DNA of 64,000 bases from Antedon mediterranea (GCF_964355755.1 NC_092678.1:20477365-20541364), one strand, 5' to 3'. Shown: positions 1 through 64,000, numbered from the stretch's first letter. Notes: generated from the sequence alone by a model not told the origin. Made by a program: numbers and translations.

Positions 1-406
1 TTTGTTACGAATAATTTAATAATACTTTTTTATATTTTTAATGTTTTTTATGCGTGCATTATGTATTTTTATACCGCTTTGTATAGCATTATAGTACTTT
101 TATATTTGAATTTCTTAGTTTGGATTGTCAGGCAAGCTGGCTATAATAATTGAGTTTACTTTTGACGTCCATAGCCGACGACGAAATTCTTTTCTTATCT
201 TGTATGTTATTGTATATTGTTATGGCTTAATAAATGAATGAAAAAAAAAAACCATTCATTTCAAAGGCCTAACTTAAGCTCAGGGTCAAACGGGTTGTTT
301 TCATTTTCTTGTTATTTAAAACAATTTTGTAAAAATGAAAATGAATACACAGAAATCTTCCATTTTTCAATACATAAGTATTATTAATTAATTAAAAAAT
401 ATATAC

Positions 407-1055
407 CCTTTCAATAATTTGCCCGAGTTGTTCCAAGATTGATTCAATACGTTGTTTATAGCTGTCATTTTCTTTTCTTAAATTCAGAATCATCTCCTTT
501 GCTTGTTTGAACTTTGCGTCAAACACTTCTACATTTTTTTCCTGATTAATTCTCATCACCTTTGTTTCTTCTATTCGTTTAATGAGACACAGATTTAGTT
601 TCTGTAGTTGTTCTAAAAAATAAAAGCGTTTTCATTTAAATACATTATTTTTGTTTTAAAGCCAACTACATCTACTAGTCATTCTCTTTTCTAACAGTTC
701 CTACGATTAGAGAATGTCCTTGTCATTCTCTTTTCTTATCTGATTAGATGAGATTTTGTTCCCTTCTCTAATCATTTCCAATGATTGGATGAGATTTTGT
801 TTGTGTGTGTCATCGTCATGGAGAGTTCGTCATAGGGATTTTCTTACCTTTAAGATTGGCATTTTCTTCTCTCAACATTTCCCATGATTGGATCAGATTC
901 TGTTCATCTATATTCGTGTGATGGTTCTCAGATAAGTGCTCTTCATTGATATCACCCACTAGTGGCTCCTTAGAGTAATTCAAAACAACAAAATCATTTG
1001 GAATGCTGGACAAATTTGCCTCAAACATCTGTTGATTTTCACCATCGTTATCCAT
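407..1055 (-). CDS. NEMO/optineurin (IKBKG/OPTN)-family protein, N-terminal two coding exons (1055-848, 612-407); gene continues beyond left edge
   Basis: ATG at 1055 lies in an exon with acceptor ttgtttacAG (exon starts 1067). Donor AAAG|gtaag at 848/847, phase-1 join to an exon starting 612 gives ...EQNLIQSWEMLREENANLK-E-QLQKLNLCLIKRIEETKVMRINQEKNVEVFDAKFKQAKEMILNLRKENDSYKQRIESILEQLGQIIER|gt. The pattern L.Q...L..EN..LKE.....N.....R.EE.......Q......F....K.AKE....L..EN matches the OPTN/NEMO N-terminal kinase-binding coiled coil as I recall it. Confidence 0.75.
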
Positions 1056-1765
1056 ATTTCTCTATTACTGTAAACAAAAAATTCAGTAGTATTGATAATA
1101 TATTATAATTTCATTTCAAAATGTTTTCTTAATTTATGACGTACTGTATACAATACAAACATTGGAAATAGTTATGAAAGTTAAAAAAATCAATACTGGT
1201 AAAAATGAAACATTGAAAGAAATTTATTCTCGGATGGAGCAGTGACCTCAATATTGTAAAAGAGATATAGCTATAATTAGATCATTAACTTTCTGAATAT
1301 TAATATATGCCAAATTTTAGAGTAGGCCTGTTGCAATACAGTTTCACCAAACTCTGTTTACATTTAAAAAGGTCAAAGCAGACTGACTGATTGCTTAATA
1401 ATGGTGATGATGTAATATACACAGCAGCAAATTTTGATTTTAATCTTTGGAATTAAACAAACAATACTGTAAGTTTCATATATGATTTGTCCTAAACCTA
1501 GACTACATAGGCCTAGTCGTTATTGGATTATTAAATTCTATATACAGTCTATTACTTCTTGTCCAAAAAAAAGTACCATAAGAAATGCTTATTAGAATCA
1601 ATACAACTTAATGAAATAGATACCAATTAAGTTAGCTAAGTATAAACTTATATGCCTTCTTCCTAGTACGTTTAGTAAGAATTACAATGTGTTAAATAGT
1701 CTAGGGCCTCCTAGGCCTAGCCTAGGCCTTCGGCTAGGCCTAGCTAGCCTAGCCTATATTAATCA

Positions 1766-1776
1766 GGGAATTTCCC
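1766..1776. promoter_or_regulatory. NF-kB consensus site GGGAATTTCCC
   Basis: Exact match to GGGRNWYYCC near the shared promoter, in the first intron of the NEMO/OPTN-like gene. Function untested. Confidence 0.35.
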
Positions 1777-1866
1777 GCAACAGGCACCGGTCAGTAAATC
1801 CGTGCGTCGCGTGAGGCGTAGGCCTATCCTAACTTTAAAACACTGCAAAAACTACCTACTTCTTAC

Positions 1867-2000
1867 CTGTATATTAAGCTATAAATGTAGTATTATGTTT
1901 AACATCCTTCTTTATTGCTCTCCGCTACAGAAATACGATTTGGTAATTTCTGGATTTCTAAAATACACAATTGGAAATTCCAGAATCTAATTGAGTAATC
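1867..2000 (-). other. Probable 5' non-coding exon of the NEMO/OPTN-like gene (upstream boundary approximate)
   Basis: Strong minus-strand donor ACAG|GTAAGA at 1867/1866. The downstream acceptor at 1068-1069 precedes the ATG, so an upstream exon is required. Confidence 0.45.
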
Positions 2001-2241
2001 TGTGTACGTGTGTGACGATGATTTTGATGATAATAATAATAACGTCAGGCATCAATGATTTTGCTTTTAAAAACTAAAGGTGGCGTCCTATTAGTAAACG
2101 TGTTGAGCATATCACGTGACTCTCTTTTCTGTCGGCTACTGATGGGTAGCAGAAGGTTCTGGTTTTCTTCGTAATTAGAAGTCAAAATTTAACAAAATAC
2201 AGGCATTTTCTTCATACTTTTTATAATTGGTGGTGTTAAAT
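2000..2241. promoter_or_regulatory. Bidirectional promoter region between the NEMO/OPTN-like gene and Sec61a; E-box TCACGTGA (2112-2119) followed by a polypyrimidine TCT/TOP-like start (ctctcttttct, 2120-2130)
   Basis: First exons of two divergent genes lie <400 bp apart; motifs read directly from sequence. Confidence 0.45.
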
Positions 2242-8556
<6,315 letters not shown>

Positions 8557-9573
8557 AATTGACCAATAAAAACTATTCATAAGACTATTATAATTAGGGT
8601 ATTTCCCTTATATTAATGTATGCGTACTGCATACATAATTAGGGAGTTGTTTTGTGTTGACATACTAATTAGGGGATTTCCCTATGCTATTATTTCACTC
8701 TCATTACTAACCCATTGATGTTTAGTTTTAGATGTTTCTTTTTAAATGTTTACCATCTTTTCGTTTTCACCATGTCAACTTTTCTTCGTTACCGACTCAG
8801 CTAAAAATGTTTCTGCAACATAACATGTAATATTTAAGATATTATTTCTTGCTCGGGATAATTATTTGAGATAGTAAAATTTTCATTCTAATCGGTAAAA
8901 CAAATCTTCTCTATGGAAACGTTTTGCCATGTGGCCGACGACACGCCCGTAAGGATAGCCAGTCCTCCCTCCAAAATACTGTAAACAAATCAAAATAAAT
9001 TTAATAATAATTTTACTTTAATATGCCCATTTTAGCACTACTTTACTTGTGTGTTATTCATGGCGTTGAGTAATTTTAAATATTGTTTAGTAATTAAATT
9101 CTTTTCCTTTAATTTTTTTGTTCTGTTCAAACATGAATTGACTTCCTTATTTAATAAATAATTTATTTGTTATGTTATTGTAAAATGTGCTACTTAAAAA
9201 AAAAAATTATCCCTACGCATATTTCTACCAATACTTATACGATCGCCATTTATATTCATGCGTTTATAAATTAAATTAAAAGAACAGAAAATGTTATATT
9301 TTTTGTGGAGTTGTTGGATATGAAAGTGATTTTAAAGAAAAAACAGGAATTAATGTTATGCTTTATACTATCTTCTTGCAAAATTAAATACAGTGTAAAA
9401 ACTATAAGAATAATAGGTGGTCTGCTACTGAAGGTTGAGCCATCTAGTTAATTTCACGACAGTAATATATAGTAGTACTGTAAATGCTGTATGTATCAAC
9501 AATTTATGGTTACAAAAGTCATGTTTGGAAATAAACTGATAACAAAGTTTTGAAATATGTTTTATGTTTATTC

Positions 9574-9823
9574 GTCCATATATGGACATGATAATGTCAT
9601 CACTACCATATGTGACAATATTGCTACCATATTTGGACATATCACACTTTTTTGTCACATAAGGTCTGTCTACACTTTCAAACTTTGTGTGACAACAAAA
9701 TGTGATGTGCTCGTATATGGACATGATGTCATATCACTAACCATATTTGACAATATCGCTACCATATTTGGGCATATCACACTTTTATTTTCAAACTCGA
9801 TTGCTAGTGCAACAGACAGAGCT
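9574..9823. mobile_element. MITE family A: full copy 9663-9823 (TAA TSD) abutting a partial copy 9574-9662
   Basis: TAA|GGTCTGTCTACACTTTCAAACT...CAGACAGAGCT|TAA; the preceding 90 bp repeat the internal core. Confidence 0.7.
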
Positions 9824-11171
9824 TAAAGAATTGTGTCGATATTTATTTTGTGCTTAAATTTCCATTTTTTTATTTTGAGGCGCAATTTATTTATTTCAAC
9901 AATATTTTACAGGGTAAAGCCGAAGCTAATCAATAGGGGGACCCTCACAAAAATACAATATGACAAGACAAAAACAACACAATTAAACAATTAAAATAAA
10001 GCAACACAATAATAAACAACAACATCCCATGAAAAAAATGATTAAACAAGAAATATTTCTTACAAAAAACGCTGATCGACATTTTAAAATTAATCATTGT
10101 TCTTTCTTCAGATAAATTTATTAAAAAGATGTCCCTTAATCCCAAAAATACATACATATCAAAGATAGTTCTTTAATTAAGAATCACATGCCCATTTAAA
10201 TATGGTCAATTTTGAACTTTAATGTGCTGCGTTTGTGACCTAAAGGCATGCAACTGAATACCCTCTAGAGACATTGTGATTTCAAGCAAAGAGTAATATA
10301 TATTCTTTGCTTTAAGTGAGAAAATTCTTTCCAGTCTGTCAACCAATCAAAGAGAATCCAAAATCGTTCAACCATAAACTCTCTTTTCCCATAGTTCAGC
10401 AGCTGGGATCTATAAATTATAGTTGAGTTTACAAATTAGCTAAAACGTCAGCCTCTAGTACTATAACTGCTGCTTGCTTTCAGCTTATAAATGAGTCATC
10501 TCTTGTGACGTAGCGGACTAGAGCAGCAGCGTGAAAAAAAATTGTGTATGTATTTAATAACTAAAACCTGTTTGATAGTTGGACGATGCTTAGCTAGTGC
10601 GGTTTCACCTTTTTCTATTAATATTCCTACGCCCCCCCCCCCCCCCCCCACTCCTCTTCCTTACAACACGACATGTGTCTTCACCCTATATTTCTGAATG
10701 TACCAGACGGCTATTCTGGGTTATGTTTATCCGTATCCATTAAAAAAAAAATGATTTCAAAATTAATATTTACTAGAAATGTTTGAGAACACTGCCTATT
10801 TCTCATGAGAATATGCTAAAAAGTCGCTGGTTAAACAGAATGTTACAATCCTTCTTCAATGAATATACACAAATATTGATTGATTTCGTCTATAATAATC
10901 ATTATTACCCTAGTAACACGGGATTTCCCCCATACCCATTGTGGAAGAACACTTACATATTCATAATGTTGTAATACATTTGAATTCTTTTGTTTTTATA
11001 ATGTTATTATTCAATTAACTTTATTGATTTTGGATAAAAACAATTATATTATAGGGTTTCTGTTTTTACGATACCTTAGACTGACATCGTTGTAGTAGAT
11101 TCAACACTTATAGTATGCGGCAAAATGATCTGTATATAAAATTAATTTTAACTCAATTTCTGTATTCCATC

Positions 11172-11405
11172 ATGCCTTGGAATTGTATCATTTGTATGAA
11201 TGATATAATTCTAGGCTTCTGGTAGTGCTCTGACTGCACATGTGCAGCTCACTTGGAGTGTATACTGAAATGGTATACCGAAAAGCGTAGTTGTCCACAA
11301 TGCAGACGACGTCACCGACGACGTGGACGTCCTCCCCGCCGAGCTCTAAGAGCTCCCCAACGAGCTTCTCCTCACTGGGTTGTAGAATTTGATTTCTATA
11401 CCTAG
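11172..11405 (+). pseudogene. Micro-RING (C4HC3) gene copy 1, single premature TAG at 11223-11225
   Basis: MPWNCIICMNDIILGFW*CSDCTCAAHLECILKWYTEKRSCPQCRRRHRRRGRPPRRALRAPQRASPHWVVEFDFYT*; GAG->TAG relative to the 15936 copy. Confidence 0.85.
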
Positions 11406-12698
11406 TAAATTAAAAATCCATTTTTTTTTAAAATGGATTTGAAAATTAACAAATATTAGAAATTTCCGAGAGCACTGCCCTATTAGAGTATTACTATGAG
11501 AACATGCTAATATATTCGCGCCATTTAGACAGGACGATTTTGTGAATAAAACAAAATAACCGGTACAGCATGTTACAATCTTTCTTCCATATTGACTTTG
11601 ATTTTATTGATACTATTTCAGCATTTTATATTCTACTTTGGCTATTCCCAAAATGGTATGGAAACGTCACAGCAATAAACACATTTTTACGAGAGGTTCA
11701 ACTGTAGTTATAATGTTAAACAAGACAACCAATGCTATGTAATCTTTCAGTCATATTTAGTTATTGTTTTCGAAAAGCACGTTTGGCTTATTGATGTACC
11801 CTCTTTATTGCCCTTTGTATTAGGCCTACTTGTTTTGTAATACAATTTTTGTCATAACTAAAAGTGAGTTCCATCACTTCTCCCCACTTCATACCACATA
11901 AGTCTTCATCTTATGTTCGCATGCATGTACCGAGAATAAGGCCTACCTCAAATTGTGCATTATTAGAGGATTAAACTCCATGTTCTCATGTTTCGGTTTG
12001 AAAACCATGCATAGAGCCTACCTTTGACAGTGTCCTTATTTATTTGACATTTCTCCTTTTGGAACACAGTGGTTAACCCGCACAAACTGCTGTGGGGTGG
12101 TAATTATACAAAACAGTTTAGTATTAGAAGTGTTTTTCTTCTACGCCTAGACGATTTTCCATATGCCCTTTTATAGGGGAATGCGCTTGTAGCCTTTTCA
12201 TAATGTAGTACTCTATTTTACACTATTACACAAAACATTTAAAAGAACGTGTAAAATGACGTTTGCCAGATAAGTAACATATTTGAAAATTGCAAAACAA
12301 TACAGAGTTTTTTTTTTATTAAGCGCGGAACATTTTCTTATGCAGGGCCGCATCTCTGAATGTCGCTCTATTTTTATCGTTTTGAATAATCAATTGTCCA
12401 CATAAATGTAATGGAATTCAATATGGTAGACGCGATGTTTTAAGGTTGTTTATGTAAACACAGCAATCCATGTAAAACCAAAGAAATACACCAGTGTGTG
12501 TTAAATCATATATAATTATCCAATTATGGACAAACAACAGCGCCCTCTAGTCCCTATTATGGACAGAAAGTAACCAATTGTGGACAGATTTCACCAACCC
12601 TATTTGCAAAAATATCAGATTATTATTTCGTATTGTTCTCTATACCCATGCACAATTAATGTCTGAATATTCTGATTGTTCTCACGGTATTTTCTTCC

Positions 12699-12908
12699 AT
12701 GCCATATATAGGAGACTTTTTGCATATTCATAATGTTTTACTAAATTGTAATAATTGTGTTTATGTAGTATGTTTTTATTTAATTATCTTTACTGGTTTT
12801 CCAAACAATTTTTTATATTATAGAGTTTCTGTTTTTAAGAGATTTTTGACTGAAACTGTAGGATTTTGTTTAACACTTATAGTATGCGGTAAAATGATCT
12901 GTATATAA
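12699..12908 (+). CDS. Hypothetical 69-aa hydrophobic ORF immediately upstream of a micro-RING copy (homologs degraded in other units)
   Basis: MPYIGDFLHIHNV...RVSVFKRFLTETVGFCLTLIVCGKMICI*. The same frame is recognisable upstream of the other RING copies but with stops or frameshifts. Confidence 0.3.
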   Translation: MPYIGDFLHIHNVLLNCNNCVYVVCFYLIIFTGFPNNFLYYRVSVFKRFLTETVGFCLTLIVCGKMICI

Positions 12909-12940
12909 CATTTATTTTAACTCAAATTCTGTATTCCACC

Positions 12941-13024
12941 ATGGCTAGGAATTGTATCATTTGTTTAAGTGATATAAGTCTGGGCTTCTGGAAGTGCTCT
13001 GTCTGCACTTGTGCAGCTCACTTG
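12941..13024 (+). pseudogene. Micro-RING copy 2, 3'-truncated
   Basis: CCACCATGG start; MARNCIICLSDISLGFWKCSVCTCAAHL, then homology stops abruptly. Confidence 0.8.
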
Positions 13025-13743
13025 CAATATGACTCATTGTTCTTATATTAATTATACATTGTTTCTTAATTCTTAACATTCCCTTAAATTGTAGAATGTT
13101 CCTATAGATACTATCCTACTGTGATTAAGGAATGAGTCATTTATTACACTAATAATCACTTATTACGTTAATAATCAAAATATGGATCGTTTTCAGTTGA
13201 AGATTGTAGGAATCCGTCAACGTTATTCCTTTTTTAGGCCTACTTTTTATTCCGTGCCAATGCACACAAAATAAAATGTCGCAAGTCATCTATATATAAA
13301 TTTACGTAAAGGCAAAATTCGGTAAATCGCGCCTTACTTCTAGAATTTTTACTCGATGGTATATAAAGTTGGTTCGTACTTTCGGTACTGATTTTAACCA
13401 ACTGATGTAACCCTGTTTACTAATTAAATTAAGTTAGATAATTAGTTATTGACGATTAAAACGAATTTAGGTTCAACGATTTGCCCCAAATAGGGGTGTT
13501 TTCCGATCGTGGTATACACTGTCTAATGGATGTCCATCTTGAAAAATACCCGCCACAAAAATGCGAGGAGGCTTCGCATTTTCCTATCTCCTCCTACGAT
13601 AATTGTTTTTAATAGCTGAAAACCGGTTGAACAGTTCGAGTACAGCATCATAATGTTGAAGACAGGCCGATTTTCTTTAAAAAATACTATTTTGATACAT
13701 TTAATATACGTTTTTACAAATGTATTGATTTGTGATGAATGGA

Positions 13744-14262
13744 ACATTCCAAATTATTTGGTTTAACCATAGAGGTTTAGATTTATGGGCCCCCTTGGAG
13801 ATTAAACATAAATAGTATTGCAATGCTGTACAATACTGTTAAGGTATTAACCACTTTTGATCGCAATTTGAATCGCAAATTTCTTACTGTGAGTGTTGGT
13901 ACTGTTAGATGTAATATAAAAATATATACAAATAAACTTTATTACTGTGAGTGTGGGTAGGCCCTACTGTTATATTGTAAACATATAATATACAAATAAA
14001 CATTCCAAATTATTTGGTTTAACCATAGAGGTATAGATTTAGATTTATGGGCCCCCTTGGAGAATAAACATAAATAGTATTGCAATGCTGTACAATACTG
14101 TTAAGGTATTAACCACTTTTGATCGCAATTTGAATCGCAAATTTCTTACTGTGAGTGTTGGTACTGTTAGATGTAATATAAAAATATATACAAATAAACT
14201 TTATTACTGTGAGTGTGGGTAGGCCCTACTGTTAGATTATAAACATATAATATACAAATAAA
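13744..14262 (+). repeat. Near-perfect ~257-bp direct tandem duplication
   Basis: acattccaaattatttggtttaaccatagagg starts at 13744 and at 14000. Confidence 0.9.
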
Positions 14263-14826
14263 TAAACGTTATTACTGACAGTTGCTTCTCAACGTTTGTA
14301 TTAATTAATAATTTAAAAATATATAAACGTCGTAGTGGTGTATCGTTACATGTACTTTACTATTTCAATCGACTATGACAGTGATAGTTTTAACAAAGTA
14401 CCGTATTAAATCGTAAATGTTTTACTGTATTTAGTGGTATATTATTTATAGGCCTATAACACATTAAAAACAATATTTCGTTACTGAGTGGATAAGAATA
14501 TATTTTAAAATGTTTCCTCTTTGTACCTATCTTCTTCCCCCATCCCTCAACTCTTAATGTTACATACAAAACACAAATTGGGTTTGTTTAAATGAGTCCA
14601 AATAAAAAAATTTGACTCATTTTGTTTCTCTCTCGGAAGTAATTCCCAGGGTGCTAATTTTGGTTGACTACATAAATCTTGTGTATATTTATTCGTTTCT
14701 GTAAACGACAATGTAATATAGTCCTGCGGTACGTACATTTGAAATCTCCATTTTTTTCTCGCTGGAAATAAATTCGAGAACCATCTGTGGGCACGACCTA
14801 GATGGTACGCGAGCGAAGCTAAAGTG

Positions 14827-14942
14827 TGCACGATGACGGCTCACTTGACGTGTATAATGCGTTGGTATACCGAAAAGCCTGCTATCCGCAATGCAGCGCC
14901 TCTTTCGTTCTTGTGTCACGCACATTCTTTCGACCCATTCTT
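14827..14942 (+). pseudogene. Micro-RING copy 3, 5'-truncated and frameshifted fragment of the 19502 subtype
   Basis: CTMTAHLTCIMRWYTEK, then a 1-nt deletion versus 19571-19688. Confidence 0.8.
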
Positions 14943-15935
14943 AGGCCTAGGCCTATATGAATAAAACGTATTTATATCCACACGTTATACATGTCACACG
15001 CATTATTTATTTTGTCTATTGTTGTGTCTCATAATGGTGTTTTAATGCCACTTTTCCCGGTCCCGAGGGTGGCCGCTTACGGGAGGTTCAACTGTAGTTA
15101 TATTTTAAACAAGACAACCAGTAATGCTCTTTCAGTCATATTTAGTTATTGTTTTCGAAAAGTACGTTTGGCTTATTGATATGCCCTTTAATATGTGTTC
15201 TGTATTAGGCCTACCTGTTTAATGTAATACAATATGTGTCATAACTAAAAGTGAGTTCTATCACTTCTCCCCACTTCATACCAAATAAGTATTCATCTCA
15301 TATACCGGAAATTAGGCCTATTTCAAATTGTGCATTATTAGAGGACTACTGTTAAGATCCATACTTTCCATATTTTGGTTGTAAATCATGCATATTATAG
15401 ACCCTACTTTTGACGGTATCTTATTTATTTGACATTTCTCCTTTTGAAGCCGCACAAACTGCTGTGGGGCGGTCATTATACAACATAGTTTAGTACTAGA
15501 AGTGTTTTTCTTCTACGCCTAGGCCTAATATAAATTATGTTTTATTGTATGTTAAACCACCAGAACGTATTTATATCCACAAGTTATACAAGTCACACGC
15601 ATTATTGATTTTGTCTATTGTTGTCTCTCATAATGGTGTTTTAATAGTATAACATTATTATTATATAGTTACATGGGGTTTTTCCCCCATGCCCTTATAG
15701 AGGAGACGACTTGCATATTCATCATAATTGTGTACAATTATTTTAATAATTGTGTTTATGATATACGTTGTTATTTAATTATCTTTAATGAATTTGGAAA
15801 TAAATAATTTTAATATAGTGTTTCTGTGTTTACGAGATTTTAGACTGAAACCGTTGTAGTAGATGTAACACTTATAGTGTGCGGAAAAATGATCTGTATA
15901 TTAAATAAATTTTAACTCAAATTCTGTATTCCACC

Positions 15936-16148
15936 ATGGCTTGCAATTGTATCATTTGCTTGAATGATATAATGCTAGGCTTCTGGGAGTGCTCTGACTG
16001 CACATGTGCAGCTCACTTGGAGTGTATACTGAAATGGTATACTAACATGCGGAGTTGTCCACAGTGCCGCCGACGTCCACGTAGACGGCGTCGGTGTTCT
16101 CGACGAGCCCTCCCTCACTGGGTCATAGAATTTGATTTCTATACTTAG
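15936..16148 (+). CDS. Intronless 70-aa stand-alone RING-variant (C4HC3) protein, putative E3 ligase, with Arg-rich tail
   Basis: C5-x2-C8-x10-C19-x2-C22-x4-H27-x2-C30-x3-W34-x6-C41-P-Q-C44-R; perfect Kozak CCACCATGG; ends HWVIEFDFYT*. Confidence 0.75.
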   Translation: MACNCIICLNDIMLGFWECSDCTCAAHLECILKWYTNMRSCPQCRRRPRRRRRCSRRALPHWVIEFDFYT

Positions 16149-16990
16149 TGTTAAAAATCCTTTAAAACTTCAATAAGGATTTTAAATGTACCTAATATTA
16201 GAAATTCACATAACTAGAGAAGAACTTTAGGAGACCTCTGTTTGTTTGTTTATTAATTCTTTTCCACACATCAATATACGTTTTACTTCAATATATTTGT
16301 GTAAAAGGGCATTCCCTAAAGTGTAGACTTTCCCGTGAAATAACGAGGCGCAAGATTATAAGATAGGAATTTACCACTGTAGGCCTATACTAGCTTCCAT
16401 TAACCGAAAACATAAATGTTGTTGTGGTGGTAAGGTGAAACATTACGGTACTTCTTTCCCCTCCTAATCTACAGCCAGTGCAATTACTTTAAAGCATTCG
16501 TGCTTTCTATATTTGGCCATAAAACAAACTTTAGTGGACCAGCGTATGTAAATCTGTAACATGCATTAGCCTCGAGGCCTAACACGCACCTACTTTCCAC
16601 CACTCCGTTCGCGAACTCCGCGCGCTGTGTAAATGGGAAAAGCCACGCGGTTTTTCGCTTACAATTACCGCTTACCGTTACCGCTCGTTTGTGTAAATTG
16701 GCCTTTAGGCCTACATGTTTAATGTAATACAATATGTGTCATAACTAAAAGTGAGTTCTATCACTTCTCCCTACTTCATACCAAATAAGTATTCATCTCA
16801 TGTACCGGAAATTAGACCTATTTCAAATTATGCATTATAAGAGGACTACTGTAGGATCCATACTTTCCATATTTTGGTTGTAAACCATGCGTTAACAGGC
16901 CCTACTTTTGACGTTGTCTTATTTATTTGACATTTTCACACAAACTGCTGTGGGGCGGTCATTATACAACATAGTTTAGTAGTAGTGTTT

Positions 16991-17103
16991 TTAGTCGCGT
17001 GGACGCGACTCTATAGTTCACTATGTCTGTCGGTCTGTCTGTCGGTCTGTCTGTCGGTCCGGTATGCATTGTAGCACGCGACTTAATGGCTGTTGGCCTT
17101 GTT
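16991..17103 (+). mobile_element. Short Helentron-associated (HINE/DINE-1-like) element
   Basis: 5' subTIR AGTCGCGTG with inverted CGCGACT, (GTCY)n microsatellite, 3' subTIR CACGCGACT, GGC..GCC stem-loop. Inserted in a T run without TSD (empty site at ~15502-15520). Confidence 0.75.
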
Positions 17104-17513
17104 CTTCTACGCCTAGGCCTAATATGTATATAAATTATGTTTTATTGTATGTTAAACCACCAGAACGTATTTATTTAGTTATACATGTCAGACGCATTAT
17201 TGATTTTTTCTATTGTGTTTGAATAGTATACTGTAATTGCTATGGTTACATGGGGTTCCACCCCCCCCCCCATGCCCTTATAGAGGAGACGACTTGCATA
17301 TTCATAAGTTTGTACCATTATTTTGTGTTGTGTTTATGATATACGTTGTTATTTAATTATCTTTAATGAATTTGGAAATAAATAATTATAATACAGTGTT
17401 TCTGTTTTTCCGAGATTTTAGACTGAAACCGTTGTAGTAGATGTAACACTTATAGTGTGCGGAAAAATGATCTGTATATTAAATAAATTTTAACTCAAAT
17501 TCTGTATTCCACC

Positions 17514-17703
17514 ATTGAATGATATATTGCTAGGCTTCTGAGAGTGCTCTGACTGCACATGTGCAGCTCACTTGGAGTGTATACTGAAATGGTATACTAA
17601 TAAGCGTAGTTGTCCACAATGCCGCCGACGTCCACGTAGACGGCGTCGGTGTTCTCGACGAGCCTTCCCTCACTGGGTCATAGAATTTGATTTCTATACC
17701 TAG
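17514..17703 (+). pseudogene. Micro-RING copy 5, start codon and first CxxC deleted, TGG->TGA
   Basis: Near-identical to 15936-16148 except for a ~23-nt 5' deletion and a nonsense change. Confidence 0.85.
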
Positions 17704-17970
17704 TGTTAAACATCCTTTAAACTTTATAAGGATTTTAAATGTACCTAATATTAGAAATTCACATACCTAGAGAAGAACTTTAGGAGACCTCTGTTCAGAG
17801 GATAGGAATTTACCACATATTTTTCCATTATTTTTGTTGCCGAAAACATAAATGTTGTTGGGGTGGTAAGGTGAAACATACGGTACTTCTTTCCCCTCCT
17901 AATCCACAGCCAGTGCAATTACTTTAAAGCATTCGTGCTTTCTATATTTGGCCATAAAACAAACTTTAGT

Positions 17971-18530
17971 ATCATATCATATCATATCATTTATTTAGCC
18001 AATATACAGAACAGTACAAAAAAAAAACAATACAAAAGTAAGTCAATGAGGCCGGACAACCTAAAAGTTATAAATAAAAATAACCGTCGAGAGGCTCTCC
18101 ACATCGAAATACTTACATAAAATGAATAATACATGGATTCTATTAAAATTGAGATAAAACTATAAAATTCAGCAATGGGTTTTTATAAAAAATTGTTAAT
18201 TTAAAAAGATAGAATTAAGAAAATATCTTTAAAATATACATATGTTCAGATTAAAACAGATTATTAAAATATTTCTTAAGGCTATGCTTAAAACAGTTTA
18301 TATTAATTAAAAGTTGGTTGCAGAGATCCGCAGGAAGATCTCTAAAATGTCTAACAAAAAAATTAAAGACAGAGTTATGAAATAAATCAGTCCGGGCTAT
18401 AAAATTATTGCGCAACTTAAGGTTATTAACATGTCTGCAATTAATAGATAAATATTTAAAAACTTTAACATCATATAATTTGTACATACCAGAGTGGACC
18501 AGAGTATGAAAATATGTACTTAGAAGCACC
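17971..18530 (-). mobile_element. 5'-truncated CR1/L2-type LINE remnant
   Basis: Minus frame ...ARTDLFHNSVFNFFVRHFRDLPADL...FKHSLKKYF resembles a CR1/L2 ORF2 C-terminus; the 3' end is AATAAA followed by an (ATGAT)n tail at 17971-17996. Confidence 0.65.
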
Positions 18531-18639
18531 AGATATAGTGCTTAAAGTCTGCGTAACATATGAATACATTTTGTATTTTGTAGGAGAGTATAAATTTCTA
18601 TTCAATTTATGTCTCTCTATCAGCCACTGTCAATGCTTT

Positions 18640-18945
18640 TATTTTATTTATTTTATTTTTTATTTTATTTTATGTCTTTAGGCAATGTGGCTAAGGATTA
18701 CCAATAGTGAATTAATCACTGTCCTATCAGATAGGTGGTAATCCCCCTGATACAGGGGCTATTTTGTGAACCAGTTCACCGGGGTAACCCTCTACTCTTT
18801 TCGAATAATGAACTGGGTTCTTTAAAGTGCACACAGGTTATAACTGTGTACATTGGACATACGGTTTATAGTCCTTATCCGAGAAGACTTGTTCCACCAC
18901 CAGAACTAGGAGTGAGTCGGCCTCGAACCCCTGCCGATATTGTTG
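18640..18945 (-). mobile_element. tRNA-derived SINE, probably Nin/Inv-domain type
   Basis: B-box-like GGTTCGAGGC on minus at ~18920-18930. The central ccctctactcttttcgaataatgaactgggttcttt...acggtttatagtccttatccgagaagact resembles the invertebrate Nin domain (from memory). (AAAAT)n tail at 18640-18672. Confidence 0.6.
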
Positions 18946-19501
18946 GCTCTTAAGGTACGGTAATCATGTAATAATGCGCATTGTGTACAATATTTTTCAA
19001 CCAGCAAAATCTATGTATAAATTAACAATAACTCATTAAGTTAATAATCAAAATATGGTTCGTTTCAGTGGAAGATTGTACGAATCTGTCAACGTTATTC
19101 CTTTTTTAGGCCTACTTTTTATTCCGTGCCAATGCACACGATATAAAATGTCGCAAGTCACAGTATTTTATTTCGTCTATTGTTATTTGTATTGTGTGTT
19201 TTCTAAAAATATGTGTCGGTGTTTATTGGGACTTTCCCCCATACCTTTTCAGAATGGATGCATACATATTCATAACATTAAATAATATAGCTTTACAATA
19301 TTTTGTTTTGTTTTTGATTATTGACCTTCACTGATATTGAAAAAAAAATTATTTTATGCACAATTACTATTTTCGAAATATTTTACATTGAAACTGTTGA
19401 ATAGGATCTAACACTTGTTGTGTTTGGTAAAATAAGCTGTATTTAAGATACATTTAGGCCTAAACATAACATCTGTACCTCGTCCCTCCGAAAGAAGGAA
19501 G

Positions 19502-19720
19502 ATGGCAGAGCAGTGTATTATCTGCCTGCAGGCTGTAACTGATCATCATAGCCCTATGAAATGCCCTCGTTGCACGATGATGGCTCACTTGACGTGTATA
19601 ATGCGTTGGTATACCGAAAAGTCTAGCTGTCCGCAATGCAGGGCCTCTTTCGTTATTGTGTCACGTATATTCTTTCGGCCCATCCTTCACTGGGTAGATG
19701 AATATGATTTTTATTCATAA
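19502..19720 (+). CDS. Intronless 72-aa stand-alone RING-variant (C4HC3) protein, divergent paralog
   Basis: C5-x2-C8-x12-C21-x2-C24-x4-H29-x2-C32-x3-W36-x6-C43-P-Q-C46-R; ends HWVDEYDFYS*; AAGATGG start context. Confidence 0.75.
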   Translation: MAEQCIICLQAVTDHHSPMKCPRCTMMAHLTCIMRWYTEKSSCPQCRASFVIVSRIFFRPILHWVDEYDFYS

Positions 19721-21379
19721 TTATCCTAGGAGATAGTGGAGGCGGTTTCATTGGAATTTTTAGAATTTCTTTAATTGTGTTTCCTTTGTAGGCGGCCTAA
19801 ATGAGCGACCGTAAATTGTACAGTAGATGTAAGCCCCTAAGTAACTTACTTTTTTTTCGTAGGCCTATAGTTTGTGAAAGCGAGCCCTGTATAATTGTTT
19901 ACCGTACGTTTAACTTAAAGCTATGTTTTTCAAAAAATCTGACACTCGATAAATGTTCAAAATGGTCTTAATTTATAGGATAATTATCTATTCTCATTTA
20001 GAGTATATGGGGTTTCGATCTCACGTAGATCATCAGTCTTCGTTGGCCTAAGTTTCACTGTCCGCATCGCTTCTCTAAAGTCTCTTCACGGATCAACGAA
20101 TAATTTGTCAACACATTTATTACTAATTAATCCTCTCTTTAATCAATGTTAAATGTAGGCCTAAACCCATTGGATTAACCACTCAAACACAGATCCGTCT
20201 TTCCCACCTCTGTAGGCTAGACATCCAGAGACTCACGGTTTCCCGCGGGGCACAGGCTCTCCCTCTTGGGTCTCAAGGATACGTCAACTTGACAGTTATC
20301 CAGCTTAAATGCCCAACAATTAACTGGTCAAACTACTTATTCTCTTCCCTCATTATGACGATGCTTTGAGAATTTATAGCTTTGGGGTTTTGTTTAAATC
20401 CTTCGCGTGATTATTATCAAATTTAGCCAAAGCCTTTTAATCACGTAAGACCTACTTTGTATTTTCAATTCCCAGAAAGAAACGGAGAATAAAATAATTG
20501 AGTGATTTCAAGTAATGCAAATATTACTAATGGTTTTAATGGTTTTAAATTTATATAGCGCAAAATACAAATAGTCTCTATGCGCTGTTTAGCACAAGTG
20601 TGAAAATGTTGATGTAAAATAAACCACAAAATAGCCTAAGAAAACCGAATAAATTGACCAAGACAACAGAAAAAAAGTCCGAAAACGGAATCTCACATCA
20701 CCACACTGTTTCACTAACTTGTCAAGACAAGCTAGCTATTTATTCACAACTGTCATAGTGATGTGAGCATCTGACTGTCCTGCCTAACAAAGAATAAAAT
20801 GTATATGAAAAAATAATGAATTCACACAGAACGAAACAAGTGAGTCTTCACTAAGATGTCGATATACATTTTTGGCCATTATATGTTTGTCGAATTTTAG
20901 TTTGATTTATTTATTAATTTTTCTTCATTTTACGCCTAATATGCGGCAGAATTTGTTTACATTTTTTGTATTTTGCCCCTTTGAAAGACAACGCTATTTG
21001 GTACGGTTTGGTTGTTTGTCGAAATTAATAAATAATAATAATGGCTTAATTTCATTTATTTATTACGTTTGTTATTAATTTATTAAGACAATTCCAATCT
21101 CGTGTTTAATCAATTGCTCAAACTTCAACCTGTTTAGTACAGCTTCTTAATATTAGTAAAAAGATAAATATTTTGGCACATATGGCGTTTCATACGTAAA
21201 AGTTACAAAACATAAATAGAAAAAATGTTACCAATAAATTAACAATAGCATCTTCTACAAACACATTATATGGTCTTTTATTTCTTAACTGTAGATTCAA
21301 AATAAAAAAAAAAACAAAACAAACAATAAGTCACTAATTGAAAGGAGACGAGTTGACATTCCTATGTGATGTGTGAACA

Positions 21380-21650: not shown

Positions 21651-21829
21651 GTTACTGTTGTAATGTAGGCTACTGTTGTAATGTAGGCTACTGTTTTGGC
21701 AAAACATATTGTTTTTTAATTTATCGCGTGGATTTATCACTTTATATGGTTTTGTAAAGTAATAATGAGGACGTTTGGAATGTGGAATTATATAACATGT
21801 GAATTTAGAGCAATTAAGAAACATTTGGA

Positions 21830-22350
21830 TGTATAGGAATCATCAACAAGTGCGGTGACGTTTAAACATGTACGAATCAAGGACGGTGACGTTTGGATCT
21901 ATACGACTCAACGACGGTAACGTTTGAATTTATACGAAACAAGGACGGTAACGTTTGTATCTATACGAATCAAGGACGGTAACGTTTGAAGCTATAGGAA
22001 TCAAGGACGGGATCGTTTGAATCTATACGAATCAAGGACGGTAACGTTTGAATTTATACGAATCAAGGACGGTAACGTCTGAATCTATACGAATCAAGGA
22101 GGGTAACGTTTGCATTTATACGAATCAACGACGGTACCGTTTGAATTTATACGAATCAAGTAGCCTACGGTTACGTTTAAATCTATACGAATCAAAAACG
22201 GTAACGTTTGAATTTATACGAATCAAGGACGGTAACGTTTGAATATATACGAACCAAGTAGCCTACGGTGACGTTTGAATCTATACGATTCAAAGACGGT
22301 AACGTTTGAATTTAAAGAATCAAGGACGGTAACATTTGGATTTATATGAA
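21830..22350 (+). repeat. 31-bp minisatellite, ~16 copies
   Basis: Unit GAATCAAGGACGGTAACGTTTGAATCTATAC; two units carry a TAGCCT variant. Confidence 0.9.
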
Positions 22351-35016: not shown

Positions 35017-35168
35017 GGCTCTGTGTCTACACTACCAAGCAATTTTGACCAAAAAAAAGCGTGTCGCGTGCTCTCATACGGTAGTGATATGACGTCATCG
35101 TGTCCATATTATGGGCACATCACATTTATTGTCGGTCGCACACAAAGTGTGATAGTGTAGACAGAGCT
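35017..35168. mobile_element. MITE family A copy with TAA TSD
   Basis: TAA|GGCTCTGTGTCTACACTACC...GATAGTGTAGACAGAGCT|TAA. Confidence 0.75.
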
Positions 35169-35713
35169 TAATTTTGTTATTTTTAACACAAATAATGTAA
35201 TAAAGTTTTTAGAAGATACTTGTATTAATAACTTGTATTGTATAAATATATGTATTTATTTGAAAAAAAAGAAGAAATATTTATAAATCTCCAGACAATT
35301 ATTTTTGGCTTTGTTTATAAGAATCAAATAGACATAGTTCGGAATTGCCTCAGTGCTATTAAGTCCCTGCTAGCCAGGCACGAATAAAATCCTTATCTCG
35401 TTCTGTTCGACTTCCCATTTTAAATTCAGTTAATTATATAAATTATATTAGTTTATAATTTAAAATTATTTTTAAAAGAATCGCTTAATAGAGGTTGTAT
35501 CTATTACAGTAAATCCTTGTAAAAACGGGATCATGCGGCCCTCAACTAGATGTGAAATCACGTATACAGGACGCTTGATATCTTTTCGGTACGGTAGGTG
35601 AAAACAAAATTCATTATTCATGATTCAAATAATCGCGCAAAAATATATAACGACAATTCTGACAATATGAAAGTATCTAAATTTTAATTAAACGCATACA
35701 CATTTTTTTTTAC

Positions 35714-36036: not shown

Positions 36037-39000
36037 ATGTATTATTACATTTCTATAAAGGCGTTAGCATAAATCAAACACCAGATTCCAGGTCCGGGAA
36101 AATGTTTAACCCTTTTAATTTTGTTCCTTTTTTACACAAATTTTCAACATTACTATTCGAATATCCGTAATTGCTGTGATTGCGATAATATAGGCCCTAA
36201 CAGAAAAGAACATCTGTAGACCTAAAAGGAAAAGGGGGGAAATTACAGACCCACTCGGAGCGTACATGGTGGCCTTGGCAAGCCACTACGTGTTGTAACA
36301 CATCATAAGCGCTGTTTGGTTTCAGATACATTATGAGATAAACGAAAGGAGGAAAAGATACTCTATGTGAGAGTACGAGATAAGAATTCACATCGTACAT
36401 TTTATTTTTACATTATATACAATCATGGTAATCAGTGTTGTCATAGGGCCTGGAGTTCTTTCTGTTTTTTTTGTTGGTTATTTTGTTTTCGTTTTTGTTT
36501 CGTTTATTTCATTTTTTTTGTCCATCTCAAATTTCTACTTTTTAACTTCATAAAATATGTAATATATATTTTATTCATATTATTATAAATGAAAGCAAGT
36601 AAATGTGATATTTTTATTAGAGTAGAATTCAAATAATGTTTACCATAGGCCTACTGATTGAATGCAAGTTTGTCCGCAAGAAACAGTGTAATGCGCAAGA
36701 AATACTGCGCATTAAACACACCTAAGCTTGTCTAACGCGCAATAAATACTGCTCATTATACACAATTGAGTTTTTTTAATGCACAATAAACACTAAGTCA
36801 TTACAATACACACTCGTTACGCGTTATATACACTAGACCAACTTAAAGAAAAAAAATAGTGCAAAGAAATACATTTTTAGGAGTTTATTAATTTATAATT
36901 CAAAGTACAATATTTTGATAGCTTGGAATTACGTTTTTTCTCCAATAAACTATCAAATTACTATCTCTCGCTAGTTTTGCAAAATTTAAATTTTTTTCCC
37001 AGTTATAAATTCTAGAGAAACTTTACTAAAATTACATCAATCTACAGCTATAAATAGAATCACAATTTGCCCACTATAGAATTATGTAGTTTTATTGATA
37101 AAAGAAAATTCATTCAGTTAATTCAAATAACTACTTAATTACTAAGTAATAATGAGACCGTCGTTTTAGTGGAATTGACAATGCAATTGTTGACTTTGTT
37201 ATATTTTGAACGATTGATTTTTGTAGAGAGCATAATGGTAATTTGTTTTTGACCGCAATGATTTGAGGGCATAGTATATACTTAAAATTAGGACAAGACA
37301 GTTGAGATAACGATCTAGAAGCTACCACTCGTCTTTATTAGCACGAGGGCTGTGTTGATTTGTGAGGTATCTAAAAAGAGTAGAGAATTCGATTATCTGT
37401 TAATCATTCTGATACCTAGTGCACCTGTAGAGAAATTACCTAACGATTACTAAAAATTAACTCTTCATTCGCTGACAGACCATAGCGGCGTGTTGCAATC
37501 AGCGCTGATTTAATTATCAGTCGCAAATGACTGCTTGCCTACCTCTAGACTCAGCGTCCAGCGATGGGAGGGAAGATGCCAACACATATTGTAGATACCA
37601 AACTAGGTTAGTGCATGGAGTATACTCCATGGTTAGTGACACTTTGTTAGCAGCGCAGGCTCACACCTTTCAACGTTTTCGTCACCGCGCCAGGGGTCTC
37701 GGTTCAAAAACAGCACAAGGGTACAAATCGCAACTGCAATAACTGTTGGTAATTTACAGCAATCAAAATGTAAAAGCAAGCTTACGAAGCGACGCTCGGT
37801 ACAGCCAGTCCCCGCGCTGCTACGCTGAACCACGGGTCAGAGCGCCCCTGTAAGAACACGTAAAAGTCAGAAATAAGTTTGACACTGCCTAGCTGAAAAG
37901 ACCCTAATACAAACATCGGTTTAAGTCAGTGACTTGCATAATGCAAATGAGTACTGCCACCCCGACATCACCAGCCTTGCACTTTTCAAGCCCCGCACCT
38001 GCTTATCTTCTTCCAACATTAAAAATCTCATTTTCTACGGCGAGAAATCAGTGTACCTTTTGACATAACCCAGTATGCACATACGCTAGTTCAAACGAAC
38101 AGACAGTAAATTGCAAATTCCTTGAGAACTTTGCCTCTGCTCTATGCCACGTCTGATCTGTGGGGGGAAATTACACCTGGTGCGGGCAAACGTGTCCTTT
38201 TAAGGGTTGAGGCTCGTTCAACCTTCATGTATGCTTCTGTTAGTAACGAAACTCTTGTAAATTCGTGGTTTAAGCCTAAATCTGATTGATTAATGATTTC
38301 TGATCCATAGAATTGGAGCGGATGCAGTTGTATGTGTCTAGGAAGTTTCGTTCTACTAATTGTACAGTAGGCCTACTACAGAACTCAGCGTGACAAATTT
38401 CACGTGGTATATAATATAGTAAGCCTATAATTTAAATTTAATAAGAATGAACTAATACATTATTATAATTTCAACAATAAATGCCTCTATTTATTATCAT
38501 TTTAATATCTGCTCTAGTGTTTTACCCGGAACAATTTAACATAATAGTTGCATAGTTTATAACCTTTATTAATGGAGGCAAAGAAAAATAAAAGGAGGAA
38601 AGAAACATTATACTGCTAAAAAAAATATAAAGATTCTTTATTTTAGGAATATCTATACGTAGACTAATCTTACTCGTTAAAATGTGAGCTTGTATGTAAC
38701 TTTTTTTTTAACATTTTCTTATCTTTATCTACTTGTTATTAGGCCTATACATACGACCTTCATTGTTAATTGTGTCACATTATATGTGACACCATATATA
38801 CATATGAGTGCCAATTTAGTGAATATTACATTCAAAAAAGTGACAAAATCGAAACAGTACATGAAATTCGATGTTGACGCAACAATAAAAAATCACTATA
38901 CAACTTTCACTATTAACAACAATTATACACACGCTTCATACATGCTGTTTTTTTGTCAGTTCACCAGATGTCCGAACAATCCGGCTGTTGACGGTCATCT

Positions 39001-44407: not shown

Positions 44408-62765
<18,358 letters not shown>

Positions 62766-64000
62766 AGTTATCGGCAACCGAGTCACCTTCGCCTGACAGA
62801 GGCGTGCTTTCGTGTTCTCTCTTACCGCGTCAGGTGAATACACGTTCGTCCACGTGTGTCGGGTGCATACGCGTATAGTTACTTAATTTCAAGTACAAAC
62901 TAATTCTACCAATCACAGTCCAGTATCGTCAAGTACAAACAAAGTGTAACTGAAAAAAAAAAATTAGACAAATAACTATTAAGGATATATTTTTTTTAAT
63001 CTAATATTGACTATTTATATTCACTTCCTATCATTTCAATAATTACAAATTGCTAAACTAATTCAGGAAAAGTATGGATTGCTTATCGGCTAAGTGAATT
63101 AGGCTGGTTTAAGTACCCCTTACCAAATCCAGGGATATTAAAATCCATGTGTGTCGTAAAAGGTCAATTATCGTTGACGTAACAGCATTGTTACATAAAA
63201 TACACACAAATACAAACATCTAAGGAATCAAACACGTTAATACTATCATTTTGAAGTTTGGTTTATGTTCCGAAAAAAATGAAACACAGCCTGTTACAGA
63301 CCACCTTGGAAATTACCAGGACGAAACCGCAGTGTGTACAAGAGTGACCAAAATACGATGCTAACAATCATAAAAATATGCCTAACAATTATTTAATAAA
63401 TAAATGATCAATAAACACAAATTTTTAGTACAGTAGCAGGTTTTTAAAATTCAGTTCGTCCCAGGTTGATGAAAATGCTCAACAATAAGAATAAAAAAAT
63501 AACATTTATAATAAAAAATATCTTATTAATCTTTTTATGATCTGCTCGATGAATTAAAATGCACTATTTTGGGGACTTATTCCGTGAACAAGGTTTTATT
63601 TAATTGTTATCTTGCACGAAACAATTTTTAAATTACCGTAATTTATTCCTTTCTCGTTAAATAATTGTTATGCACTTTTAATGTTGGGAACGTAACTGTA
63701 ATATTCTGGTATCTTGCACGACATATGGCGTGTCACCGTTCAGAACAGTTTTTTCAGACTTTTTACATAATTTTATAAATACTGTAGTTTCGATAAATGT
63801 TTTATATTAGCTCGTACGAATACGTTATAAAATGTTATACATGTTGTAGAAAATAATGATTTAATAACACATGTGATTCGTTTGTCCTTGAAGTAGTTTC
63901 AACTAGATTGTTGTTGTCGTTGATAAAGTGTTAGAAACTTCAACTAAATTGAAAATAAACTAAATTTGAACACATCAAGTAGCTAATTAAGACGCGAAGA

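What the first reader, a model, noticed from the sequence alone, without database searches (positions are those of the whole stretch)
10730..19730. Tandem birth-and-death array of intronless ~70-aa stand-alone C4HC3 RING micro-genes
Seen: six same-strand copies (11172, 12941, 14827, 15936, 17514, 19502) in two diverged subtypes; two are intact and four are broken by a nonsense codon, truncation or deletion. The intact pair differ widely in the loops but keep all 8 metal ligands, the helix Trp, CPQC+R and a terminal HWVxE(F/Y)DFY(T/S)* motif, which points to protein-level selection. Two copies have a perfect CCACCATGG start. Known: CxxC..CxxC-x4-H-x2-C..W..CPxC spacing is that of listerin/LTN1, FANCL and NSE1-type RINGs, which normally sit inside much larger proteins; Arg after the last Cys is the E3 'linchpin'. 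Inference: an unannotated microprotein E3-ligase or E2-decoy family, below usual gene-caller length limits, amplified beside a NEMO/OPTN-like gene. It may be host-derived or of viral/transposon origin.
Basis: partly seen in the sequence, partly recalled or inferred. Interest (0 to 1): 0.85.

Follow-up and report, generated by a model that had tools for sequence, protein, structure and literature searches.

The report
Feather-star RING-only microprotein gene array
A feather-star genome carries six tandem copies of an unannotated tiny gene for a 70-residue RING zinc finger, two intact and four broken, and the intact ones likely act as minimal ubiquitin ligases.

Summary
Six same-strand copies of a short C4HC3 RING reading frame lie at the stated places: two intact (15936, 19502), four broken. 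The host is a crinoid close to Antedon (GATA exon 99% identical to A. mediterranea). The array sits between Sec61-alpha and GATA1/2/3; the NEMO-like exon is 10 kb away, beyond Sec61-alpha. The copies show purifying selection (dN/dS 0.21 and 0.49; all eight ligands, Ile, Trp, Pro, linchpin Arg and the tail HWVxExDFY kept at 39% DNA divergence). Both intact proteins fold as RINGs. One RNA run holds unspliced, low-depth contigs over copies 1, 4 and 6, and in that run copy 1 lacks its nonsense codon; the depth is no higher than Sec61-alpha intron contigs, so expression is only weakly supported. Copy 4 cannot be an internal coding exon. No close relative was found in any collection. The RING scores as RING-H2-like, not specifically listerin/FANCL/NSE1-like. 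Best reading: a lineage-specific birth-and-death family of RING-only E3 ligases whose conserved aromatic tail likely docks a partner. Activity is untested; viral origin is a lead only. New variant of a known kind; interest 0.48.

The parts
11172..11405 (+). Copy 1, type A, 77 codons; nonsense at codon 18 in the window; 7-codon insertion in the linker
   Evidence: X1 contig 11131-11429, depth 6.3, unspliced, frame open there
12941..13027 (+). Copy 2, type A, first 29 codons only (pseudogene), CCACCATGG start
14827..14945 (+). Copy 3, type B fragment, 5' part missing, 1-nt frameshift; 91% identical to copy 6
15936..16148 (+). Copy 4, intact type A, 70 aa: ligands C5 C8 C19 C22 H27 C30 C41 C44; I7, W34, P42, R45; Arg-rich linker; tail HWVIEFDFYT
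   Evidence: in-frame stop 30 nt upstream with no AG up to codon 8; X1 contig 15945-16107 depth 4.85
17514..17703 (+). Copy 5, type A, 96% identical to copy 4; start deleted and nonsense codon (pseudogene)
19502..19720 (+). Copy 6, intact type B, 72 aa: ligands C5 C8 C21 C24 H29 C32 C43 C46; I7, W36, P44, R47; hydrophobic linker; tail HWVDEYDFYS
   Evidence: (zf-RING_2 34.9 bits, above cut-off); X1 contigs 19490-19664 (0 differences, depth 4.1) and from 19710 across the stop (depth 2.4)
10898..11171 (+). About 270 bp of upstream sequence duplicated with the reading frame (homologues 5' of copies 2, 4, 5, 6); likely promoter/5' UTR (inferred)
   Evidence: 77-79% identical among type A lineages, 96% copies 4/5, 61-63% type A versus copy 6
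13150..13288 (+). Spacer block duplicated with type B (homologue 19023-19160, 92%), marking a recent duplication of the B unit
11687..12150 (+). Spacer block repeated between type A units (homologues 15077-15522 and 16705-16992)

Best explanation
The array is a crinoid gene family, expanded and pruned by tandem duplication, whose intact members encode 70-72-residue proteins predicted to fold as a zinc RING and likely to work as minimal RING E3 ubiquitin ligases. Shown: six copies, two intact frames, conserved ligands, purifying selection, RING fold in two models. Inferred from established RING biochemistry: I7, the helix Trp and the CPxC Pro bind an E2~ubiquitin conjugate and the Arg after the eighth ligand holds it closed for transfer. 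Inferred, weaker: with no substrate-binding domain, the conserved 10-residue aromatic tail (HWVxExDFY, kept at a fixed 16-residue distance from the last Cys in copies 4, 5 and 6) docks as a strand on a partner, either a second RING (as dimeric RNF4/IAP/MDMX-type ligases use an aromatic residue of the partner to prime ubiquitin) or a scaffold that brings the substrate; the linker differs by subtype (Arg-rich in A, hydrophobic in B) and would set location or target. Odds by step: real selected genes about 0.8; E2-binding about 0.7; catalytically active rather than decoy about 0.5 overall.
For: Selection: copy 1 v copy 4 dN/dS 0.21 (pN/pS bootstrap 0.12-0.49); copy 4 v copy 6 dN/dS 0.49 overall, 0.41 RING core, 0.15 tail, 1.9 linker; chance of keeping 8 ligands under neutral change 0.0024 to 0.00005 for 25-39% divergence (observed ORF identity 61%). 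6 of 9 Arg positions shared by copies 1 and 4 in the linker use different codons. Fold: pLDDT 83-93 per block over residues 1-50 in both models; best PDB fold matches RNF165 and RNF12 RING-E2~Ub complexes, rmsd 1.3-1.7 A. Residues: hydrophobic before the second Cys and Arg/Lys after the eighth ligand are the E2-binding and linchpin positions (PMC13061254 section 10); in the archaeal stand-alone srfp the equivalents I30, W58, R69 are needed for activity (PMC5654768 passages). Stand-alone: copy 4 has an in-frame stop 30 nt before the ATG and no AG up to codon 8. RNA: X1 shows six GT..AG joints over Sec61-alpha that three other runs lack, and unspliced contigs over copies 1, 4 and 6. Host context: between Sec61-alpha and GATA1/2/3, no transposon or viral Pfam domain above cut-off in 187 of 187 six-frame stretches scanned; X2 contigs at copy 1's flank and copy 6 have depth 217 and 290, like Sec61-alpha contigs (221-260), against 10^5-10^6 in repeat bins.
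Against: No activity data. RNA support is one run, one study, contig depth 2.4-6.3, the same as two Sec61-alpha intron contigs (4.5, 7.4), so DNA carry-over or read-through from Sec61-alpha (ending 2-3 kb upstream of copy 1) is not excluded; contigs give no strand. Several dN/dS intervals reach or pass 1 (core copy 4 v 6: 0.35-1.01; core copy 1 v 4: 0.04-1.45; copy 1 v 6 core 0.41-1.65), and the copy 1 v 4 signal leans on the linker alignment. The ORF is no more conserved in DNA than its upstream flank (61% v 62%). Four of six copies are broken, and X1/X2 alleles carry several amino-acid changes (L28F, D21V, Q43R, and changes in the tail), which fits relaxed constraint. The tail is low-confidence and unstructured in both monomer models (pLDDT 43-65) and lies 26 residues after the last Cys, about twice the distance recalled for RNF4/IAP/MDM2 tails (recalled, not from a call). 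Type A scores under Pfam's zf-RING_2 cut-off (19.4 v 27.3 bits). Copy 6 has AG dinucleotides between its upstream stop and ATG that the X1 contig spans by only 5-12 nt.
Confidence: 0.5

Rival explanations
1. The proteins are made and bind E2 or a larger RING ligase but act as decoys or dominant-negative regulators: having no substrate domain, they would soak up or discharge E2~Ub or poison a RING dimer through the tail.
For: RING-only architecture with 4 residues before the first Cys and 26 after the last; few lysines (1 in copy 4, 2 in copy 6; sequence); rapid turnover typical of conflict genes (inference).
Against: The linchpin Arg is kept in all five copies that reach it or its position in-frame (copies 1, 4, 5, 6; copy 3 is frameshifted there); the archaeal stand-alone srfp is an active ligase on a substrate (PMC5654768).
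Confidence: 0.17
2. The array is a decaying relic: once selected (in a virus, a mobile element or an ancestor), now drifting, with the RNA contigs due to read-through or DNA carry-over.
For: 4 of 6 copies broken; RNA depth equal to intron background; non-synonymous alleles in X1 and X2; ORF and flank equally diverged between subtypes.
Against: Low dN/dS between copies 1 and 4, which duplicated in place with their host flanks (79% flank identity); two intact frames in AT-rich DNA after 39% divergence; copy 1 open in X1.
Confidence: 0.16
3. The frames are coding exons of a larger spliced gene (alternative RING-encoding last exons).
For: Copies 1 and 6 have AG dinucleotides between the upstream in-frame stop and the ATG; a Caenorhabditis brenneri protein carries the same C4HC3 spacing at the end of a 505-aa chain (P0022).
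Against: Copy 4 (and copy 2) cannot be entered by canonical splicing before the first CxxC; both subtypes keep ATG exactly four codons before the first Cys in a strong Kozak context; 9 of 9 X1 joints in 10850-19849 lack GT..AG ends and none touches a RING frame; a length-free HMMER search of 1.84 billion proteins found no close long relative.
Confidence: 0.07
4. The copies are cargo of a transposon or provirus that multiplied locally, with no host role.
For: Intronless; Atlas neighbours are mostly viral small RINGs (9 of 10 rows for each protein, scores 0.88-0.93); high-copy repeats are interleaved.
Against: RING-bearing contigs are at single-copy depth; no transposase, integrase, polymerase or capsid domain above cut-off in 8.6-44.3 kb; no relative in viral or metagenome contigs; units are irregular segmental duplicates.
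Confidence: 0.1

Closest known systems
Archaeal small RING finger protein (srfp) of Ca. Caldiarchaeum subterraneum and Nitrososphaerota 80-aa RING proteins (cluster of P0059)
   Same: Stand-alone short RING; same E2-contact Ile and Trp and linchpin Arg (PMC5654768 passages); P0059 has the same CxxC-x11-CxxC-x4-H-xx-C spacing, 33% identity to copy 6
   Different: Archaeal proteins have a ~29-residue N-terminal extension and a 9-residue tail, and srfp sits in a Ub/E1/E2 operon; here a 4-residue start, a 26-residue tail, and an animal tandem array. No evidence of direct kinship (tree unresolved)
Small RING proteins of Nucleocytoviricota and Preplasmiviricota
   Same: Size 71-170 aa and RING-first layout; top Atlas clusters for both proteins (0.91, 0.93); best BFVD fold matches E 4e-4 to 9e-4
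   Different: Shared features 164 and 152 of 256, under the tool's 170 guide; identity 20-40% in the fold matches; tail not matched; no viral contig encodes a relative
RING-H2 ligases RNF165/Arkadia, RLIM/RNF12, RNF38, ZNRF1, plant ATL/RMR
   Same: Best profile and fold matches; W-x6-CPxCR ending
   Different: Fourth ligand is Cys not His, with CxxC spacing; those are domains of long proteins with substrate-binding parts
C4HC3 RINGs of listerin/LTN1, NSE1, FANCL, MARCH (RING-CH)
   Same: Ligand order C4HC3; listerin matches at E=0.0034
   Different: Lower scores than RING-H2 profiles; all below Pfam cut-offs; no HEAT/RWD, winged-helix or transmembrane parts in 70 aa
APC11/RBX1/RBX2 (smallest animal RING subunits)
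   Same: Nearly RING-only proteins that get substrates through a scaffold
   Different: They bind 3 zinc ions (PMC13061254) and use an N-terminal strand to enter a cullin (recalled); here no N-terminal arm; zf-rbx1 17-19 bits and zf-ANAPC11 15.8 bits are under cut-off

Membership tests
RING finger (cross-brace) domain | Eight zinc ligands in RING order and spacing | tested here: met
   8 of 8 in both intact copies, C4HC3
RING finger (cross-brace) domain | Profile score above a curated RING cut-off | tested here: inconclusive
   Copy 6 passes zf-RING_2 (34.9 v 27.3); copy 4 does not (19.4)
RING finger (cross-brace) domain | RING fold (two loops, short strands, central helix) | tested here: met
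   AF2 models pLDDT 78 and 77; copy 6 model matches RING structures, rmsd 1.3-1.7 A
RING E3 ubiquitin ligase | E2-binding hydrophobic residues and linchpin Arg/Lys | tested here: met
   I7, W34/36, P42/44, R45/47 (positions defined)
RING E3 ubiquitin ligase | Stimulates ubiquitin transfer from E2~Ub | not testable with these tools
   needs an in vitro assay
RING E3 ubiquitin ligase | Substrate-recruiting domain or partner | tested here: inconclusive
   no second domain in 70-72 aa; conserved tail of unknown partner
Dimeric RING with C-terminal aromatic tail (RNF4/IAP/MDM2 type) | RING dimer formed through the tail | not tested
   complex-prediction queue was full; no job ran
Listerin/NSE1/FANCL/MARCH orthologue | Family profile above cut-off and the family's other domains | tested here: not met
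   RINGv 17.8/21.6, zf-RING-like 16/26.6; no other domains; listerin 16th of 30
APC11/RBX cullin-RING subunit | RING-H2 with third zinc site and N-terminal cullin-binding arm | tested here: not met
   ATG four residues before first Cys; profiles under cut-off
Endogenous viral element / transposon cargo | Neighbouring viral or transposon hallmark genes, or high copy number | tested here: not met
Endogenous viral element / transposon cargo | Phylogenetic nesting inside a viral clade | tested here: inconclusive
   130-row, 51-column tree has 0 branches at 95 or more; quick method only
Birth-and-death multigene family | Tandem paralogues of different ages, intact and pseudogenised, not homogenised | tested here: met
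   pairs at 96%, 87-91%, 78-86% and ~60% identity; 4 of 6 broken

The most novel reading that the evidence does not exclude
A small RING gene captured from a large DNA virus or polinton-like element was domesticated inside the ancient Sec61-alpha/GATA123 block of feather stars and became a fast-turnover family of the smallest animal E3 ligases, with two subtypes aimed at different compartments (Arg-tract type A at nuclear or nucleic-acid-bound targets) and a shared tail that plugs into one partner.
Probability: 0.22. Interest if true: 0.75.

Novelty: new variant of a known kind. Interest (0 to 1): 0.48.

Why it matters
Animal RING ligases are almost always long proteins or cullin subunits; a selected family of 70-residue RING-only genes, absent from the protein collections that do hold this genus's annotated proteins, would show that gene-length filters hide a class of ubiquitin-system microproteins. 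The proteins are small enough to make and assay at once, and the two subtypes are a natural experiment: same RING surface and tail, opposite linkers. If the viral lead holds it is a case of a domesticated viral ligase in an echinoderm.

Tried and rejected
No whole genome is held, so copies elsewhere in the genome and orthologues in other crinoids could not be sought. Word-based protein searches at near length: none for copy 6, 0 of 52 candidates for alignment A2. HMMER over 1.84 billion proteins: 158 hits at E<=0.001, the 150 listed are generic RINGs at 28-49% identity, mostly over the core; 28 of 150 match the C4HC3 spacing pattern, a few of them RING-H2 with an extra Cys. 18 of these hits were looked up: one archaeal cluster and one C. 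brenneri protein carry informative names, the rest none or 'hypothetical', so their viral nature is not shown. Viral contigs: no relative for copy 6, P0097 or A2; metagenome contigs: none; alignment A1 was too diverse to scan with. Tree of 130 RING cores unresolved and did not even join the two subtypes. Sequencing-run search: no RNA holder listed on record; X1 was treated as RNA only because of its Sec61-alpha splice joints. In X1 the bins over copies 2 and 5 and most unique spacer bins had no cover; contigs show presence only, so this is not used as evidence. Homodimer prediction: queue full, no verdict. Rfam 8500-44400: 0 matches. NCBIfam: nothing above cut-off. Earlier findings: 3 of 3 look-ups empty. 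Literature: no description of this family in listings of searches (0 papers; 2; 2; 0; 6 listed of 7; 10 listed of 58); only listings and abstract starts were seen for these, and subscription papers and supplements were not searched. Poly(A) signal: ATTAAA just after copy 1's stop, none of four common hexamers within 400 nt after copies 4 and 6, uninformative. GC and CpG content of the frames resemble host exons, which neither supports nor excludes an old viral origin.
Full report
Setting. The window is AT-rich animal DNA (GC 26-38% in 2-kb bins). A long exon at 57413-58051 (-) is 99% identical to GATA-binding factor 2-like of Antedon mediterranea and 90% to that of Anneissia japonica, so the host is a comatulid feather star in or near Antedon; the species was not determined. 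A spliced Sec61-alpha gene lies at about 2240-8560 (+) (exon match to Sec61-alpha E 6e-26; joints). A NEMO/optineurin-like exon lies at 392-628 (-) but scores only E=0.027, under cut-off. The array therefore sits between Sec61-alpha and GATA1/2/3, a linkage also listed for the vertebrate GATA123 paralogons (PMC2857956, passages incl. the Figure 6 legend). No whole genome was available.

The observation. tblastn finds six copies at the stated places and nothing else credible; 20 shuffled windows give no hit. Type A: copies 1 (11172), 2 (12941), 4 (15936), 5 (17514). Type B: copies 3 (14827) and 6 (19502). Copies 4 and 6 are intact (70 and 72 aa). Copy 1 has a nonsense codon at position 18, copy 2 stops matching after codon 29, copy 3 lacks its 5' part and is frameshifted, copy 5 has lost its start and has a nonsense codon. 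The duplicated unit includes about 270 bp upstream, shared even between subtypes (61-63%), and several spacer blocks; pair identities of 96% (4/5), 87-91% (3/6), 78-86% (1/2/4) and about 60% (A/B) show duplications of at least four ages. This is birth-and-death by local segmental duplication.

Selection. Counting codons (Nei-Gojobori, Jukes-Cantor; bootstrap on pN/pS): copy 1 v 4 dN/dS 0.21 (0.12-0.49); copy 4 v 6 0.49 (0.49-0.97), split as RING core 0.41, tail 0.15, linker 1.9. Keeping all eight ligands through 25-39% neutral change has probability 0.0024-0.00005. In type A the Arg tract is kept through synonymous change (6 of 9 shared Arg positions use different codons). Against: samples are small, most partial intervals touch or pass 1 (copy 1 v 6 core 0.41-1.65; copy 2 pairs up to 1.4-1.9), and ORF and upstream flank are equally diverged in DNA between subtypes (61% and 62%). 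Overall, protein-level selection on core and tail is well supported; whether it still acts on every intact copy is less sure.

Stand-alone or exon. Copy 4 has an in-frame stop 30 nt before its ATG and no AG from there to codon 8, so no canonical upstream coding exon can join it and keep the first CxxC; copy 2 is alike apart from an AG in codon 3. Copies 1 and 6 do have upstream AGs. Both subtypes start four residues before the first Cys in a good Kozak context, and end at the same place after the conserved tail.

Expression. Five runs hold the region, none on record as RNA. X1 behaves as RNA: six GT..AG joints across Sec61-alpha introns at depth 1960-2760 that X2, X3 and X5 lack. In X1, contigs cover copy 1 (11131-11429, depth 6.3, through start and stop without an intron), copy 4 (15945-16107, 4.85) and copy 6 (19490-19664, 4.1, no differences; and from 19710 over the stop, 2.4); 9 of 9 joints listed in the array lack GT..AG ends and lie away from the frames. 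The copy 1 contig does not carry the nonsense codon, keeps the frame and all ligands, and has two other amino-acid changes, two silent changes and a 3-nt deletion: copy 1 is probably intact in that animal, or the contig comes from a very close paralogue. Caveat: two Sec61-alpha intron contigs have depth 4.5 and 7.4, contigs give no strand, and this is one run. Expression is weakly supported, not shown.

Not a transposon or provirus as far as tested. X2 contigs at copy 1's flank and over copy 6 have depth 217 and 290, like Sec61-alpha contigs (221-260), while interleaved repeats reach 10^5-10^6 (the tool warns that summed depth is not a copy number). Pfam scans of 115 stretches (42 aa or more, 8.6-22.5 kb) and 72 stretches (52 aa or more, 22.5-44.3 kb) gave no family above cut-off except the RING of copy 6.

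What the protein is. Copy 6 passes Pfam zf-RING_2; copy 4 hits it under cut-off. Both models are confident over residues 1-50 and disordered in the linker and tail. The copy 6 model matches RNF165, RNF12 and other RING-H2 ligases and many giant-virus RINGs about equally. A family profile ranks RING-H2 proteins first and listerin 16th of 30. The residues that RING ligases use on E2~Ub are all present: Ile before the second Cys, helix Trp, Pro, and Arg after the eighth ligand (PMC13061254 section 10). The archaeal stand-alone srfp needs the same Ile, Trp and Arg and ubiquitylates a substrate in vitro (PMC5654768 passages), which shows that a RING-only protein can be an active ligase. Dimeric RINGs prime ubiquitin with an aromatic residue from the partner (PMC8897509 passages); the conserved aromatic tail here could do so, but it lies farther from the RING than recalled for those proteins and the dimer prediction could not be run.

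Relatives and origin. No close relative exists in the collections searched, although they hold annotated proteins of Antedon and Anneissia. Distant look-alikes with the same spacing occur in archaea (P0059 cluster), a nematode (P0022) and unnamed metagenomic proteins; P0097 (59 aa) is the closest in layout, 38% over the core only. The Atlas lists viral small RINGs for 9 of 10 rows for each protein, at scores and feature counts the tool rates as leads, and it warns that such rows are no sign of transfer. A tree did not resolve anything. I put host-derived origin (truncation or retrocopy of a RING gene, then fast divergence) at about 0.6, viral or mobile-element origin at about 0.3.

Verdict. 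Real, selected, unannotated RING-only gene family in a feather star; most likely minimal E3 ligases that rely on a conserved tail to dock a partner (0.5), less likely decoys (0.17), a decaying relic (0.16), element cargo (0.10) or exons (0.07). It is a new variant of a known kind: tiny stand-alone RINGs are known from archaea and viruses, and I found no description of such an array in animals in searches (listings only; supplements not seen). Interest 0.48.

Noticed in passing
window 392-8560 and 44411-62882: NEMO/optineurin-like exon head-to-head with Sec61-alpha, then GATA1/2/3 tail-to-tail about 36 kb on: tight linkage in a crinoid of genes linked in vertebrate GATA paralogons (SEC61A per PMC2857956; OPTN/IKBKG linkage recalled, not in that paper's text).
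   Followed up: partly
window 11223-11225: The nonsense codon of copy 1 is absent from the X1 contig, suggesting a segregating null allele.
   Followed up: partly
window 16111-16133: An X2 contig at about half depth carries four differences near the tail of copy 4 (three change amino acids), matching neither copy 1 nor copy 5: a divergent allele or a seventh paralogue.
   Followed up: partly
window 11115: Copy 1 has an extra in-frame ATG 57 nt upstream that would add 19 residues; this site differs in runs X2 and X5.
   Followed up: partly
window 21785-22316: 31-bp minisatellite, about 17 units, 2 kb downstream of copy 6.
   Followed up: no
window 3770-3922, 4522-4620, 5987-6156, 6831-7003, 9576-9837, 35082-35170, 61936-62102: A high-copy interspersed element with inverted ends (MITE-like) sits in several Sec61-alpha introns and elsewhere; depth up to 10^6 in DNA runs.
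   Followed up: no
window 13250-14800, 16550-17150, 18650-18950: High-copy repeats inserted between RING units, including a 262-bp tandem duplication at 13743-14262; they may have seeded the unequal crossovers.
   Followed up: no
window 37480-38400: GC-richer non-coding stretch downstream of GATA1/2/3 with no Pfam or Rfam match; possible conserved enhancer (inference).
   Followed up: no
protein P0097: 59-aa stand-alone C4HC3 RING with an aromatic end (WIYVYD) on a 34-kb unnamed contig; nearest layout to the crinoid proteins, context not obtainable.
   Followed up: partly
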